DNA of 5,854 nt, from IMG/VR virus record IMGVR_UViG_2703718791_000015; one strand, given 5' to 3'. Source of the stretch: a virus. Lineage: Duplodnaviria; Heunggongvirae; Uroviricota; Caudoviricetes. The notes under the pieces were generated by a model. It had not been told where the DNA came from, ran no database searches, and worked only from the letters and a program-made list of their open reading frames with translations. Positions 1 through 5,854 of the stretch are shown in pieces. Numbering within the stretch: the first letter of the stretch is position 1; every line of letters begins with the position of its first letter. The translations under genes and the position numbers were made by a program.

Positions 1-272
1 TAAAGGTTCTCAGTATGTATCGCTGGCCTACGCGCAGCGGCTTAAGGAAGCCGGATTACTGGCATCAACAGGGAGTACTGGCGACTCGTATGACAACGCG
101 ATGGCTGAGAGCATCAATGGTCTTTACAAAGCGGAGGTAATACACCGTAATAGCTGGAAAAACCGGACAGAAGTGGAACTGGCCACACGAACGTGGGTGG
201 ACTGGTATAACAATCGACGATTGCTGGAAAGGCTGGGCCATATTCCTCCGGCAGAAGCAGAAAAAGCTTATT

Positions 273-2608
<2,336 letters not shown>

Positions 2609-2609
2609 G

Positions 2610-2634
2610 AAAAGCCCGGCGTTCGGGCTTTTCT
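2610..2634. terminator. Bidirectional rho-independent terminator between the convergent tail and helicase operons
   Basis: aaaaGCCCGgcgttCGGGCtttt: 5-bp GC stem (2614-2618 / 2624-2628), 5-nt loop, flanked by an A-run on one side and a T-run on the other, so a U-tract follows the hairpin on either strand. Sits between the spike stop (2608) and the glycosyltransferase-like stop (2655). Confidence 0.7.
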
Positions 2635-2654
2635 GTTATGACGGGTTCAATTTT

Positions 2655-3629
2655 TTATCCGTTACCGCGCGACGGTTTCTGCGTGATAAACGTCTCAAGC
2701 ATCTTTTCCGCAATTGCCGACCAGGTGTGACACTGGACCTTTTCAGCATTTTTCACGCGATCAACGCGAGCAATAACCTCATCCCAATCAATCCGCGACT
2801 TGATAACCATATGGTTCACCAAAGCCAGGCGATCTGGCGGAAGGCAATCGGACGGCGTTAATATCAACGCCCCACACATTGCCGCCTCAAGAACAGTTAA
2901 TCCAAGGCTTTCGGGATGCGTAACGATAAAAACGTCACTCTTACGCAATTCAGCTGCAAATTCGGTTGCTGGTACCGGCGTCCGTCTGTATGGAGTTACC
3001 GAAATATTCCCCGGATCAATGGTAACCAATCCGTCATCGGTCAACGTTCTGGCCTCATACGGAACAGTCAGACGCTGAAGGTTCATAAGGATACTTAAGG
3101 AGTGATCAAACCCACTAACATCAAATGCAGCGTGGTCTACAAAAATACGCAGAACATCGTCTGTTTTGGTTTCCAGATGGAACAGCTCCTGATTCGCTGC
3201 CCATCCAACATGTTTGTTAAAGCGATTATGACGCTCTAACCTGCCGGGATTATCCAGGTACCGCCAGGTATCATCGCGGACAGTAAAAGTAATATCAACT
3301 GGTGCTGAATCCAGCATAGAACCGTCGTATACCTGAGCTACCCATCCAGTGAATCGACGACGCAGTTGCACACCTATTTCCCTGGGCACCGTAGTAAAAT
3401 ACCGCAATCCTGGCGCTAAAATGGCTTTCGCAGAACACGAGAGCGCAGCGGTCAACACAGCTTCAACATAATCCTCCGGGCTTTCGACGCCGGGAGAATA
3501 TGGACGATGGTATTGCAATGTTACCCCAGCCTCACTAAAGGCGCAGGCCAGGTTGTAAGCCCACATTTCCGTATATGTTTTCACATCACTGATAGCTTCA
3601 AATTTTCGCCCAATGATCAGGATGTTCAT
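2655..3629 (-). CDS. GT-B fold glycosyltransferase-like protein (GT4-type E-x7-E motif); substrate unknown
   Basis: 324-aa ORF with SD AAGGAG 5 nt before the ATG (ATG = revcomp of 3627-3629); its start overlaps the upstream stop as ATGA. C-terminal SDVFIVTHPESLGLTVLEAAMCGALILTPSD matches the canonical GT4 motif (compare ESFGLVLLEAMAAGTPVIA); N-terminus MNILIIGRKF is a typical GT-B start. The call is by motif only. Confidence 0.6.
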   Translation of the reverse strand: MNILIIGRKFEAISDVKTYTEMWAYNLACAFSEAGVTLQYHRPYSPGVESPEDYVEAVLTAALSCSAKAILAPGLRYFTTVPREIGVQLRRRFTGWVAQVYDGSMLDSAPVDITFTVRDDTWRYLDNPGRLERHNRFNKHVGWAANQELFHLETKTDDVLRIFVDHAAFDVSGFDHSLSILMNLQRLTVPYEARTLTDDGLVTIDPGNISVTPYRRTPVPATEFAAELRKSDVFIVTHPESLGLTVLEAAMCGALILTPSDCLPPDRLALVNHMVIKSRIDWDEVIARVDRVKNAEKVQCHTWSAIAEKMLETFITQKPSRGNG

Positions 3630-3928
3630 TGCGTCTCCTTTTCCCTGACTAAAAGCTCATCCAGCTTGCTTTTATGTTTGAGCACATAGCCACATATTTT
3701 TCCTTTGGAGCTAATTTGCGGAATGGAATAATATTCCGAAAATACTAATTCAGCCTTTTCTAAGACAAGTGAAACACCATAGCGCGCAACATGTCTGTCG
3801 ATCATTTTTGCATCTCTGAGATTACCTTTAATTGATAGCCAGTCGTTGAGGTACATATGGTTGCGATTGGCTTTTTTCAGCATGTCGCTCAACCAATTTT
3901 TATTACGCTTAGTTAGTTTCCGTTGCAT
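3626..3928 (-). CDS. Small basic protein of unknown function, translationally coupled to the helicase (possibly the counterpart of P1 dbn by position; not verified)
   Basis: 100 aa starting MQRKLTKRNKNW..., rich in Lys/Arg. ATG (revcomp of 3926-3928) overlaps the helicase TGA stop (3928-3930) as TGATG; SD AGAGGA lies 6 nt upstream. The ORF track starts 1 codon earlier at a TTG. Confidence 0.65.
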   Translation of the reverse strand: MQRKLTKRNKNWLSDMLKKANRNHMYLNDWLSIKGNLRDAKMIDRHVARYGVSLVLEKAELVFSEYYSIPQISSKGKICGYVLKHKSKLDELLVREKETQ

Positions 3929-5292
3929 CAATAATCCTCTTGCCAGTCAGCACCAGCATAGTTATCAAACCGTGAGTATTGGCCGTTAAAAGCCAATCTC
4001 ACCGTGCCAATTGGGCCATTTCGTTGCTTACCGATAATCACCTCGGCAATGCCCTTCATTTCGCTATCCGGGTGATAAACTTCGTCGCGATACAGAAACA
4101 TGATCAGGTCTGCGTCCTGCTCAATTGCTCCTGATTCACGTAAATCTGAATTTACCGGTCGTTTGTCCGCACGCTGTTCAAGTGAACGATTAAGTTGTGA
4201 CAATGCCACCACCGGTACTTGTAATTCCTTCGCCAAAGCCTTCAGTGAGCGAGAAATCTCGGCAATTTCCAGCGTTCGGTTATCTTGCAGCTCGGGGACG
4301 CGCATAAGTTGCAGGTAGTCGATCATAATCATGCTCAAACCACCATTTTCTTTATAAACACGACGAGCGCGGGAACGAAGCTCTGTAGGTGTCAGGGCGC
4401 TTGAGTCATCAATAAAAATATTTTGCTTGTCCAACAGAATCCCCATTGCGCCAGAAACCCGCGCCCAATCCTCGTCGTTAAGTTGCCCTGTTCGAATACG
4501 AGTCTGATCAACGCGTGCAAGAGAAGCCAGTGAGCGCATCATCAGCTGGTGGCTCGGCATCTCAAGGCTAAAAACCAATACGGGCTTATAGTTACGGACT
4601 GCGGCATTTTCGACGAGATTCATCGCAAACGTGGTCTTCCCCATAGATGGGCGGGCGGCGACAATGATGAGATCGGACGGCTGAAGCCCTGCCGTCTTCT
4701 TATTGAGATCGGTAAATCCCGTATCAAGCCCCGTTACACCATCATGTGGTCGCTGAAACAACTCTTCTATGCGAGATACCGTTGCATCGAGAATGCTGGC
4801 GATATCTTTTGGACCACTACCGCTCTTTTGTCGTTTTTCAGCTATTTCAAAAACGCGGCGCTCGGCCATATCCAGCAATTCATTGCTGCCCCTGCCATCC
4901 TGCGCATATCCAGCTTCGGCTATTTCATTTGCGACGGAAATCATTTCACGAACAACCGCGCGTTCACGAACGATATCTGCATAAGCACAAATATTTGCCG
5001 CGCTGGGCGTGTTCTTTGACATCTCCGCAAGGTACGCAAAACCACCGGCGCGTTCTAATTTACCGTTCTGTTCAAGTGCTTCAGCAAGTGTTATCAAATC
5101 AATCGGTTTGCCATGACTTAATAACCTCTCCATCTCACTGAAAATTTCACGATGAGCACTGGTATAAAAATCATCAGCAACTATACGATCTGCAACTTCA
5201 TCCCAGCGGCAGTTATCAAGCATTAAGCCACCAAGTACAGCTTGTTCTGCACTAAGGGAATTTGGCATGGATTCAAGAGGGGATGCAGACAT
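3928..5292 (-). CDS. ban: DnaB-family replicative DNA helicase, phage-encoded paralog (P1 Ban-like)
   Basis: 454 aa from ATG (revcomp of 5290-5292) with SD GGAG 5 nt upstream; the ORF track's 5298 start is an upstream GTG. Walker A (ARPSMGKTTF) and long stretches that are near-identical to E. coli DnaB as I recall it (LQPSDLIIVAARPSMGKTTFAMNLVENAA, LEIAEISRSLKALAKEL, ALSQLNRSLEQRADKRPVNSDLRESG, IIGKQRNGPIGTVRL). A tail-gene and tRNA context means this is not chromosomal dnaB; the ban symbol is a best guess. Confidence 0.93.
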   Translation of the reverse strand: MSASPLESMPNSLSAEQAVLGGLMLDNCRWDEVADRIVADDFYTSAHREIFSEMERLLSHGKPIDLITLAEALEQNGKLERAGGFAYLAEMSKNTPSAANICAYADIVRERAVVREMISVANEIAEAGYAQDGRGSNELLDMAERRVFEIAEKRQKSGSGPKDIASILDATVSRIEELFQRPHDGVTGLDTGFTDLNKKTAGLQPSDLIIVAARPSMGKTTFAMNLVENAAVRNYKPVLVFSLEMPSHQLMMRSLASLARVDQTRIRTGQLNDEDWARVSGAMGILLDKQNIFIDDSSALTPTELRSRARRVYKENGGLSMIMIDYLQLMRVPELQDNRTLEIAEISRSLKALAKELQVPVVALSQLNRSLEQRADKRPVNSDLRESGAIEQDADLIMFLYRDEVYHPDSEMKGIAEVIIGKQRNGPIGTVRLAFNGQYSRFDNYAGADWQEDY

Positions 5293-5578
5293 TAGCACTC
5301 CACCCAGGCGTGCTGAATGTCAGATATAATCGGCATACTCAAATCACTCCTAACGATATGAGTCATCACCAGAAAATCAGGATTAATGCGCCGGACTCTT
5401 CCCGGCTGTCACACCGAATCGCCAGGATGGTGAATCCCTTTACCCGAGAAACAACAAACGGTGGCTTGCACATTCCGGCTACCTGGTTCGTTGCCTGAGC
5501 TAGGGGCAAGGTTCCCCCCTTTTAACGTCACCAGACCGCTAACGACGCATGTGCCAGACGCCGTGTTACAACCAAATA

Positions 5579-5654
5579 TGGTGGCCCCTACCGGACTTGA
5601 ACCGGTGACCGTGCGATTATGAGTCGCCAGCTCTAACCACTGAGCTAAAGGGCC
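5579..5654 (-). tRNA. tRNA with CAU anticodon, most similar to tRNA-Ile2 (lysidine-type, decodes AUA); elongator tRNA-Met not formally excluded
   Basis: 76-nt cloverleaf on the - strand: GGCCCTT-TA-GCTC-AGTGGTTA-GAGC-T-GGCGA-CTCATAA-TCGCA-CGGTC-ACCGG-TTCAAGT-CCGGT-AGGGGCC-A-CCA. 7-bp acceptor stem, 5-bp T stem, T-loop TTCAAGT, encoded CCA, anticodon CAT. Closely resembles E. coli ileX as recalled and is unlike E. coli elongator tRNA-Met. One non-canonical G27:A43 pair. Confidence 0.88.
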
Positions 5655-5657
5655 GGA

Positions 5658-5765
5658 TTACTGTTTCCTGAGTGCTTCTATGACGCCAGCAATACCGCCT
5701 ACAACTATGCCAGCAATGACAACGAGAACAATTGGATGCTTGTCAGCAAAATCCCAGAAGCCCAT
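5658..5765 (-). CDS. Putative small hydrophobic (single transmembrane helix) peptide, 35 aa
   Basis: Not in the ORF track (too short). Minus-strand ATG (revcomp of 5763-5765) to TAA (5658-5660) encodes MGFWDFADKHPIVLVVIAGIVVGGIAGVIEALRKQ. SD AAGGA lies 6 nt upstream, and the ATG overlaps the upstream ORF's TGA as TGATG. The stop is 3 nt from the tRNA 5' end. Confidence 0.45.
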   Translation of the reverse strand: MGFWDFADKHPIVLVVIAGIVVGGIAGVIEALRKQ

Positions 5766-5854
5766 CACTGATCCTTAGAAGCTGTTTTTAATATCGGCCA
5801 TACCAATGTTACAGCTACTGCCACCAATGAACCGCCCCGGAAATCCTGGAGACT
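5765..5854 (-). CDS. 3' end of an unidentified minus-strand gene entering from the right edge (last 29 codons only)
   Basis: Open frame from the window edge to TGA (5765-5767), C-terminus ...SLQDFRGGSLVAVAVTLVWPILKTASKDQ. Its stop overlaps the start of the small peptide ORF. Too short to assign a family. Confidence 0.35.
   Translation of the reverse strand, partial: SLQDFRGGSLVAVAVTLVWPILKTASKDQ

What the first reader, a model, noticed from the sequence alone, without database searches (positions are those of the whole stretch)
5658..5765. Unannotated 35-codon hydrophobic ORF immediately upstream of the tRNA
It has a good SD (AAGGA, 6-nt spacer) and is translationally coupled (TGATG) to the gene upstream, which argues it is translated. 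The product MGFWDFADKHPIVLVVIAGIVVGGIAGVIEALRKQ is essentially one transmembrane helix with charged ends, the architecture of small membrane-active peptides such as type I toxins, holin-like modulators or membrane-protein regulators. Its stop is 3 nt from the tRNA 5' end, so tRNA processing and peptide translation would share one transcript.
Basis: seen in the sequence. Interest (0 to 1): 0.5.

Follow-up and report, generated by a model that had tools for sequence, protein, structure and literature searches.

The report
Phage P1 tciC small membrane protein
The 35-codon ORF is the phage P1 gene tciC, annotated since 2004: a real, conserved gene for a one-helix membrane protein of untested function, which belongs to a large family of phage mini-proteins that no curated database describes.

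Summary
The sequence observation holds, on the minus strand. ATG is at 5765 and TAA at 5660-5658. AAGGA lies 6 nt upstream, TGATG overlaps the upstream stop, and the stop is 3 nt from a tRNA(CAT).

"Unannotated" holds only for RefSeq/PGAP. The peptide is identical to P1 TciC (AAQ14046.1) and P7 Upf69.6, and it matches PHROG 23152.

The ORF is coding. The frame, start and architecture persist in D6-like, Enterobacter, Leclercia and Pantoea phage-plasmids at 23-40% identity, with saturated synonymous and low non-synonymous change (p = 1e-8 to 4e-6). A profile search of 1.84 billion proteins found about 100 further 31-46 aa relatives in phage early-gene arrays. They share M-x-F-W-D-F-x-D-K-H-P-W-W-T, a hydrophobic helix and a basic tail.

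Predicted topology is N-out/C-in. AlphaFold gives a short helix, a proline break and a membrane-length helix.

TciC is not tied to tciA/tciB: each occurs without the other. CRISPRi found it non-essential for P1 lytic growth. I found no support for a type I toxin or a holin.

In this window an IS3-family element truncates tciB, so the upstream coupling partner is a remnant.

Verdict: a known gene of untested function, probably a small partner-binding membrane protein. Aside: a conserved structured RNA, absent from Rfam, follows the tRNA.

The parts
5658..5765 (-). tciC coding sequence: 35 codons plus TAA. A GTG at 5768 is an alternative start.
   Evidence: Searches give the ORF. It is identical to P1 TciC AAQ14046.1 and P7 Upf69.6. 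It matches phrog_23152 at E=3.4e-27. Homologues and selection.
5772..5776 (-). Shine-Dalgarno AAGGA, 6 nt before the ATG
   Evidence: Read. SD-like purine runs are clear in D6, the 92-kb E. coli plasmids and Pantoea, and weak in Enterobacter and Leclercia.
5765..5827 (-). 3' remnant of tciB (DUF3927): the last 20 codons plus TGA at 5767-5765, which overlaps the tciC ATG (TGATG)
   Evidence: Alignment with P1, P7 and plasmid pLR-21-1_3. TciB matches Pfam DUF3927 at E=7e-31. Homology to P1 stops at 5827.
5579..5654 (-). tRNA with CAT anticodon and encoded CCA. It is P1 trnI (tRNA-Ile2). Its 5' end lies 3 nt after the tciC stop.
   Evidence: ARAGORN. Rfam tRNA, 64.7 bits. Annotated tRNA-Ile in P1 and by PGAP.
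5828..5854 (+). Terminal inverted repeat (TGAACCGCCCCGGAAATCCTGGAGACT) of an IS3-family element that truncates tciB and removes tciA and the native upstream region
   Evidence: The mirror repeat of another copy ends at window 347. Window 1-350 matches the IS629 transposase end.

Best explanation
The ORF is phage P1 tciC. It encodes a 35-residue bitopic inner-membrane protein.

In intact P1 it is the third cistron of tciA-tciB-tciC inside the C1-repressed early ban operon. It is translated from its own Shine-Dalgarno and by restart at the TGATG overlap with tciB (inferred).

Inferred architecture: a short acidic/aromatic N-terminal helix (FWDFADK) at the periplasmic interface, a break at His10-Pro11, a transmembrane helix (residues 11-34 in the model), and a basic cytoplasmic end (N-out/C-in).

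It is a member of a broad family of 31-46 aa phage early proteins with the same N-terminal motif.

Most likely mechanism (inferred, not shown): it acts by helix-helix packing with a membrane partner and modulates that partner. The P1 allele carries a G19xxxG23xxxG27 motif suited to such packing. The partner could be a small two-helix protein encoded just upstream (TciB in P1) or a host envelope protein. It is accessory, not needed for plaque formation.

RNase P cleavage at the tRNA 5' end would cut the same transcript 3 nt after the stop codon (inferred).
For: Identity
- It is identical to P1 TciC and P7 Upf69.6, and the exact sequence is on at least 1000 public contigs.
- phrog_23152 full-length match, E=3.4e-27.

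Coding
- Homologous ORFs keep the start, frame and architecture in the SJ46-type allele, D6, 92-kb E. coli plasmids, Enterobacter, Leclercia and Pantoea phage-plasmids, at 23-74% identity.
- Synonymous sites are saturated while non-synonymous change is low: pS 0.76 against pN 0.20-0.22, with Fisher p = 4e-6, 2e-7 and 1e-8 in three pairs.
- One variant carries an in-frame 8-residue duplication (P0023).
- The antisense ORF is not conserved in D6.

Wider family
- The profile search gave 101 cluster representatives at E<1e-3. Nearly all are 31-46 aa and aligned from residue 1, with a shared motif.
- They lie in phage or prophage early arrays, usually with start/stop overlap to the upstream gene.

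Topology and fold
- The N flank has net charge -1 and the C flank +1 to +7 in all eight sequences examined (seven lineages).
- The summed hydrophobicity energy of the P1 helix is -2.2.
- AlphaFold gives helix 3-9, a break, then helix 11-34, at pLDDT 93.5.

Operon context
- No promoter-like or terminator-like site on either strand in 5200-5854. P1 operon annotation.

Expression and dispensability
- tciB/C transcripts were measured during P1vir infection (bioRxiv 10.64898/2025.12.28.696737).
- CRISPRi efficiency of plating for tciC was 1.3, classed non-essential (PMC10695390).

Possible partner
- A hydrophobic two-helix ORF abuts or overlaps the start in P1 and D6 (TciB). Unrelated two-helix ORFs do the same in the 92-kb E. 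coli and Enterobacter plasmids.
Against: - There is no direct evidence of translation, membrane insertion or any partner.
- The P1 and SJ46-type alleles differ by 4 synonymous and 9 non-synonymous changes (ratio about 0.64, not significant). Recent constraint in the P1 lineage is therefore not demonstrated, although all replacements are conservative.
- The upstream two-helix partner is absent in Leclercia, in Pantoea and in most distant contexts.
- About half of one P1-like subgroup has lost tciABC (PMC9603915). RCS47-type phages carry a protease gene in its place.
- In this particular window tciB is truncated and the native promoter region is replaced by an IS, so expression here is uncertain.
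Confidence: 0.5

Rival explanations
1. Accessory subunit of a TciA(TerB)-TciB(DUF3927) tellurite/colicin-resistance or cell-division-inhibition module, as the gene name implies. On this reading TciC works only together with TciA and TciB.
For: In P1, P7, SJ46 and D6 it directly follows tciA-tciB with overlapping stops and starts. TciA matches Pfam TerB and TciB matches DUF3927.
Against: TciA-TciB pairs in SSU5-like phage-plasmids, lambdoid phages and an Actinobacillus phage end in a hairpin with no tciC-like ORF. TciC-like ORFs occur without tciA/tciB in about 88 E. coli plasmids, in Enterobacter, Leclercia and Pantoea plasmids, and in unrelated phages. No tellurite or colicin phenotype has been tested (PMC6799933 and PMC9603915).
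Confidence: 0.15
2. Membrane-damaging toxin (type I-toxin-like or host-shutoff peptide) that depolarises the inner membrane when made.
For: Its size and shape (short polar N-terminus, hydrophobic helix, basic C-terminus) resemble Hok, TisB and Ldr-type peptides. The glycine-zipper-like GxxxGxxxG in the P1 allele is a motif seen in pore-forming helices (resemblance from general knowledge).
Against: No promoter-like site on the opposite strand or nearby for an antisense RNA. The gene has a normal Shine-Dalgarno and is translationally coupled inside an operon. The family conserves a specific N-terminal motif rather than only hydrophobicity. The glycine zipper is absent from D6-type and most family members. 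It is carried stably on hundreds of plasmids.
Confidence: 0.12
3. Regulatory leader peptide. Translation of the ORF, which has two AUA codons and one AGG in P1, would sense decoding capacity and control maturation or expression of the adjacent tRNA-Ile2 (the AUA reader) and of ban.
For: The stop lies 3-9 nt from the tRNA 5' end in P1, the SJ46 type, D6, the 92-kb E. coli plasmids and Enterobacter. The P1 allele has ATA at codons 20 and 29.
Against: The AUA codons are not conserved. The SJ46 type keeps one; D6 and the 92-kb plasmids have none (sequences). The peptide sequence itself is under selection. Family members in other phages have no tRNA nearby.
Confidence: 0.05
4. Holin, antiholin or lysis-timing modulator.
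For: It is a small one-helix membrane protein with two adjacent possible starts (GTG-ATG).
Against: It lies in the early ban operon between tciB and a tRNA, not beside an endolysin. Relatives sit among replication and nucleotide-metabolism genes. Knock-down does not affect plating.
Confidence: 0.04
5. Not a gene: a chance open frame in the 5' leader of the tRNA.
For: A 35-codon open frame has P of about 0.17 by chance. PGAP does not call it.
Against: The frame, start and motif are conserved at 23-40% identity with saturated synonymous sites. About 100 distant relatives align from residue 1.
Confidence: 0.03

Closest known systems
Phage P1 TciC (AAQ14046.1) / phage P7 Upf69.6 (AAQ07541.1); PHROG phrog_23152
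   Same: Identical 35-aa sequence and the same position relative to tciB, trnI and ban. Full-length PHROG match.
   Different: Nothing differs in the protein. In this window the operon is broken by an IS: tciA is absent and tciB is truncated. The published label (tellurite/colicin/cell-division accessory) is a guess from neighbourhood. My comparisons do not support an obligate link with tciA/tciB.
Pf3-coat-type small N-out/C-in membrane proteins (YidC-inserted single-span proteins)
   Same: Short acidic N-tail, one hydrophobic helix and a basic C-tail. The same topology is predicted from the positive-inside rule (the comparison itself is from general knowledge).
   Different: No sequence relationship. 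TciC is not a virion protein. Its insertion pathway is untested.
Bacterial small membrane-protein regulators (MgrB, AcrZ, SgrT, MgtS class)
   Same: 30-50 aa, single helix, act by binding a larger membrane protein. This is the working model proposed here.
   Different: This is a functional class, not a homologous family. No partner of TciC is known. TciC is phage-encoded and lies in an early operon.
Type I toxins (Hok, TisB, Ldr, Ibs)
   Same: Size, hydrophobic helix and basic end.
   Different: No antisense RNA locus or promoter was found. TciC is operon-embedded with a Shine-Dalgarno and coupling, and it has a conserved specific N-terminal motif.
TerB-DUF3927 (TciA-TciB) gene pairs of temperate phages and phage-plasmids
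   Same: They are neighbours of tciC in P1, P7, SJ46 and D6.
   Different: The pair is widespread without tciC, and tciC-like genes occur without the pair.

Membership tests
P1 TciC / PHROG phrog_23152 | Full-length sequence match to the family profile or reference protein | tested here: met
   phrog_23152 E=3.4e-27, positions 1-35 of 35. The exact sequence equals AAQ14046.1 and AAQ07541.1.
P1 TciC / PHROG phrog_23152 | Synteny: downstream of tciB (DUF3927), immediately upstream of trnI and ban | tested here: met
   In the window tciB is only a 20-codon remnant.
Wider TciC-like phage mini-protein family (defined here, uncurated) | 31-46 aa with the N-terminal motif M-x-[FIL]-[WFL]-[DEQ]-F-x-D-[KER]-[HN]-P, then a hydrophobic helix, then R/K | tested here: met
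   P1 TciC matches the consensus at M1, F3, W4, D5, F6, A7, D8, K9, H10, P11, L32, R33 and K34. The profile search recovered 101 representatives. No Pfam, NCBIfam or PDB counterpart.
Type I toxin-antitoxin toxin | Small hydrophobic membrane peptide | tested here: met
Type I toxin-antitoxin toxin | Overlapping or adjacent antisense RNA gene with its own promoter | tested here: not met
   No sigma-70-like promoter on either strand in 5200-5854. This is a consensus scan only, so weak promoters are not excluded.
Type I toxin-antitoxin toxin | Toxicity on over-expression | not testable with these tools
   Needs an induction experiment.
Holin / antiholin | Encoded in a lysis cassette next to an endolysin or spanin | tested here: not met
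   Its neighbours are tciB, a tRNA and ban. Family members lie in early arrays.
Ter / TerB-associated resistance module accessory | Consistent co-occurrence with TerB-like and DUF3927 genes | tested here: not met
   Pairs occur without tciC, and tciC-like ORFs occur without the pair.
Ter / TerB-associated resistance module accessory | Contribution to tellurite, colicin or phage resistance | not testable with these tools
   The papers I could read report no experimental test.

The most novel reading that the evidence does not exclude
TciC-like mini-proteins are a widespread, so far undescribed class of phage early effectors. Their conserved periplasm-facing FWDFxDKHPWW motif would dock onto one conserved envelope component of the host, for example to block superinfection, injection or a membrane-based defence. 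In P1/D6-type phage-plasmids the gene forms a fixed three-part transcript unit with tRNA-Ile2 and a structured RNA that no database describes.
Probability: 0.2. Interest if true: 0.55.

Novelty: already known. Interest (0 to 1): 0.27.

Why it matters
The gene itself adds nothing new to the P1 map. It has been annotated as tciC since the 2004 genome record.

Three points are useful.
- PGAP systematically omits it from hundreds of P1-like plasmids.
- Its name implies a link to tellurite/colicin resistance that the comparative data do not support.
- It belongs to a much larger family of about 35-residue phage membrane proteins that has no Pfam or NCBIfam model and no tested member.

P1 is easy to manipulate genetically and tciC is dispensable for plating. 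That makes it a convenient entry point for finding what this family does.

Tried and rejected
- Pfam, NCBIfam and PADLOC scans of TciC, TciA and TciB: nothing for TciC, and no defence-system match for any of the three. Pfam and NCBIfam scans of the whole family gave only noise.
- PDB sequence search with the family profile: no hit.
- Literature: searching "tciC" alone returned unrelated acronyms. Peptide or accession strings found nothing. The P1 genome paper is not held in the library.
I solved this by putting a 42-aa homologue first in the alignment.
- AUA-sensing leader idea: rejected because the AUA codons are not conserved.
- Idea that the upstream two-helix ORFs of the 92-kb E. coli and Enterobacter plasmids are diverged DUF3927: no Pfam or PHROG support.
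- Looked for a tciC-like ORF after TciB in SSU5-like, lambdoid and Actinobacillus phages: none found; hairpins follow instead.
- Tested whether tRNA adjacency is a family-wide trait: it is not.

Full report
**What the window is**

The window is phage P1-type (Punavirus) DNA. Positions 348-5827 are 98-99% identical to P1, P7 and many E. coli P1-like plasmids. It carries the tail/baseplate genes 24, 6 and 5, then dbn and ban on the other strand. After ban come a tRNA and the finding.

Positions 1-347 are the end of an IS629-like element. Its inverted repeat ends at 347. Positions 5828-5854 are the inverted repeat of another IS3-family copy. No complete E. coli genome or PLSDB plasmid in the collections carries these junctions.

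**Checking the observation**

All features lie on the minus strand.
- The ORF runs from ATG 5765-5763 to TAA 5660-5658, 35 codons.
- AAGGA is at 5776-5772, followed by a 6-nt spacer.
- The upstream frame ends with TGA at 5767-5765, giving the TGATG overlap.
- ARAGORN and Rfam both start the tRNA at 5654, 3 nt after the stop.

The open frame alone means little, since P is about 0.17 for 35 open codons and the window has 61 ORFs of at least 30 aa.

**What it is called**

In the P1 GenBank record the ORF is annotated as tciC (AAQ14046.1). [quoted passage not shown] It follows tciA (TerB-like) and tciB and precedes trnI and ban, inside the operon driven from the C1-controlled ban promoters.
- P7 calls it upf69.6.
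- The exact sequence is on at least 1000 public contigs and matches PHROG phrog_23152 over its full length.
- PGAP-annotated plasmids omit it. That is probably why it looked unannotated.

**Is it a gene?**

tblastn with the P1 and D6 peptides against plasmids found several lineages.

| Lineage | Identity / count |
|---|---|
| P1 allele | 154 plasmids |
| SJ46-type allele | 74% identical, about 120 plasmids |
| D6 allele | unannotated in the D6 record |
| E. coli ~92-kb plasmids (D6-like allele) | 42 aa, 88 plasmids |
| Enterobacter, Leclercia, Pantoea versions | identity in the text below |

The start, frame, length (35-42 aa) and architecture are kept. Protein identity to the P1 allele is 31-37% in the D6-like, Enterobacter and Pantoea lineages and 23% in the Leclercia type.

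Synonymous sites are saturated while non-synonymous change is low.

| Pair | pS | pN | Fisher p |
|---|---|---|---|
| D6 vs 92-kb plasmid | 0.76 | 0.22 | 4e-6 |
| 92-kb plasmid vs Enterobacter | 0.76 | 0.20 | 2e-7 |
| D6 vs Enterobacter | 0.90 | 0.28 | 1e-8 |

The two P1-lineage alleles differ by 4 synonymous and 9 conservative non-synonymous changes. That difference is not significant on its own. One variant has an in-frame 8-residue duplication. The antisense ORF is not conserved.

**A wider family**

I searched a profile of 11 close homologues against 1.84 billion cluster representatives. It returned 101 proteins at E<1e-3, nearly all 31-46 aa and aligned from residue 1.

They share M-[TNS]-[FIL]-[WFL]-[DEQ]-F-x-D-[KER]-[HN]-P-[WIVG]-[WL]-T, then a hydrophobic stretch, then A-L-R-[KR].
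- No Pfam, NCBIfam or PDB entry covers them.
- phrog_23152 recognises 57 of 103.

The contexts I could read are phage or prophage early-gene arrays. Neighbouring genes include RNase T, PNKP, RNA ligase, DnaB, ThyX and YbcO. Examples are Escherichia phage CLB_P3 and a Burkholderia prophage. The start usually overlaps the upstream stop.

**Architecture**
- The N flank carries net charge -1 and the C flank +1 to +7 in all eight sequences examined (seven lineages). The positive-inside rule therefore predicts N-out/C-in.
- The P1 helix (residues 12-29) is strongly hydrophobic and contains G19xxxG23xxxG27.
- AlphaFold with the family alignment gives helix 3-9, a break at His10/Pro11 and helix 11-34, at mean pLDDT 93.5.

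**Relation to tciA/tciB and to the tRNA**

TerB-DUF3927 pairs in SSU5-like phage-plasmids, lambdoid phages and an Actinobacillus phage are followed by a hairpin and no tciC-like ORF.

Conversely, the 92-kb E. coli plasmids lack tciA/tciB yet keep the mini-ORF. The Enterobacter, Leclercia and Pantoea plasmids show no annotated tciA/tciB and no TerB- or DUF3927-like ORF in the stretches I read.

Two of these lineages have an unrelated hydrophobic two-helix ORF just upstream. In the 92-kb plasmids its stop overlaps the start; in Enterobacter its stop abuts the start. No Pfam or PHROG match links these ORFs to DUF3927.

RCS47-type P1 phages replace tciABC with a serine-protease gene. Homology to P1 resumes at window 5663, inside the last codons of tciC.

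Within the P1/D6 clade the ORF ends 3-9 nt before the tRNA(CAT). Leclercia has an extra tRNA-like gene in between, and Pantoea has no tRNA downstream. Distant family members are not next to tRNAs.

So the name "tci accessory" is not supported, and the tRNA spacing is a clade-level synteny.

**Literature**
- A CRISPRi screen classed tciA, tciB and tciC as non-essential for P1 plating; tciC had efficiency of plating 1.3 (PMC10695390).
- tciABC is one of eight variable regions of P1-like phage-plasmids, and nearly half of one subgroup has lost it (PMC9603915).
- The tci genes are treated as untested morons in D6-like plasmids (PMC6799933).
- tciB/C transcripts change in an hfq mutant (bioRxiv 10.64898/2025.12.28.696737).
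- I found no translation, localisation or phenotype data.

**Mechanism**

My best reading is a translated early small inner-membrane protein that acts by binding a membrane partner. I give about 0.9 to its being a translated membrane protein and about 0.5 to the whole model.

| Rival | Confidence | Main evidence against |
|---|---|---|
| Obligate TciA/B accessory | 0.15 | TciA-TciB pairs and tciC-like ORFs each occur without the other |
| Membrane toxin | 0.12 | No antisense promoter; operon-embedded; specific conserved motif |
| AUA-sensing leader | 0.05 | AUA codons not conserved |
| Holin-like | 0.04 | Wrong genomic context |
| Chance ORF | 0.03 | Contradicted by selection and by the wider family |

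In this window expression is uncertain, because tciB is truncated and the upstream region is an IS.

**Seen in passing: a structured RNA after the tRNA**

The roughly 190 nt after the tRNA (minus strand, about 5576 to 5385) are better conserved than tciC across P1, D6 and the Enterobacter plasmid. The element also occurs at 76-80% identity in Stx-converting, cdtI, phiV10-type, Tyrion, Stenotrophomonas and Klebsiella phages, and in 583 plasmids. An exact 19-mer from it occurs in 24 species-representative genomes: 22 Enterobacterales, plus two Bacillota/Oscillospiraceae metagenome bins.

A nine-sequence alignment supports seven helices.
- 95% of cells are paired.
- 11 pairs show compensatory change, against 4.9±1.3 in shuffles and 1-2 in slid controls.

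A 32-sequence alignment keeps the covariation. G-U pairs favour the tRNA strand. Rfam 15 has no match. Conservation continues further 3' in many prophages, and no common ORF follows. Its function is unknown.

Noticed in passing
window about 5385-5576, minus strand (between the tRNA and ban): A conserved structured RNA candidate directly after the tRNA. It is better conserved than tciC across P1, D6 and Enterobacter plasmids. It is also present, unannotated, in Stx-converting, cdtI, phiV10-type, Tyrion, Stenotrophomonas and Klebsiella phages and in Enterobacterales prophages. Seven helices have strong covariation (11 compensatory pairs against 4.9±1.3 in shuffles). There is no Rfam 15 match. 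The element extends further 3' in many prophages, and no common downstream ORF follows.
   Followed up: partly
window 1-347 and 5828-5854: The P1 fragment 348-5827 is bracketed by two IS3-family (IS629-like) ends in the same orientation. Gene 24 is cut at the left and tciB at the right, and tciA is absent. Neither junction is in the complete E. coli genomes, phages or plasmids searched.
   Followed up: partly
window 5658-5790 compared with L014 2480-2608: The P1 and SJ46-type alleles differ at 13 of 108 positions in tciC, against 4 of 164 in tciB and 0 of 76 in the tRNA. This is a sharp local patch of divergence, with chimeric alleles such as P0016. It suggests recombination between alleles or diversifying change.
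   Followed up: partly
L010 1408-1641 and L011 2306-2500: In E. coli ~92-kb and Enterobacter phage-plasmids that lack tciA/tciB, the tciC-like ORF is preceded by an unrelated hydrophobic two-helix ORF. Its stop overlaps the start in the E. coli plasmids and abuts it in Enterobacter. This mimics the TciB-TciC arrangement. No Pfam or PHROG family matches these ORFs convincingly.
   Followed up: partly
L005 1155-2010 (RCS47) compared with window 5663: RCS47-type P1 phages carry a putative serine-protease gene in place of tciABC. Homology to P1 resumes inside the last codons of tciC, so the slot upstream of trnI is an exchangeable cargo site.
   Followed up: partly
window 3626-3931, minus strand: A 101-aa ORF lies between ban and the dbn-like glycosyltransferase gene. 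It is annotated as a hypothetical protein in plasmid pLR-21-1_3 but is absent from the P1 reference, where ban and dbn abut. This accounts for the two-piece match to P1.
   Followed up: no
L015/L016 5076-5654; L003 2284-2859; L011 3100-3675: In the Pantoea-type contigs a Tad2-like (PF11195) gene lies about 1 kb downstream of the mini-ORF. D6-like and Enterobacter plasmids carry a 191-aa ORF at the matching position downstream of the tRNA/RNA element. RefSeq labels one copy of that ORF "MW1434 family type I TA system toxin". I did not test whether these ORFs are homologous to the Tad2-like gene. If they are, the region would be an anti-defence cargo area.
   Followed up: no
window 5579-5654, minus strand: ARAGORN calls the tRNA Met (CAT). 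P1 annotators and PGAP call it tRNA-Ile2 (89% identical to E. coli ileX), which would read AUA after lysidine modification.
   Followed up: no
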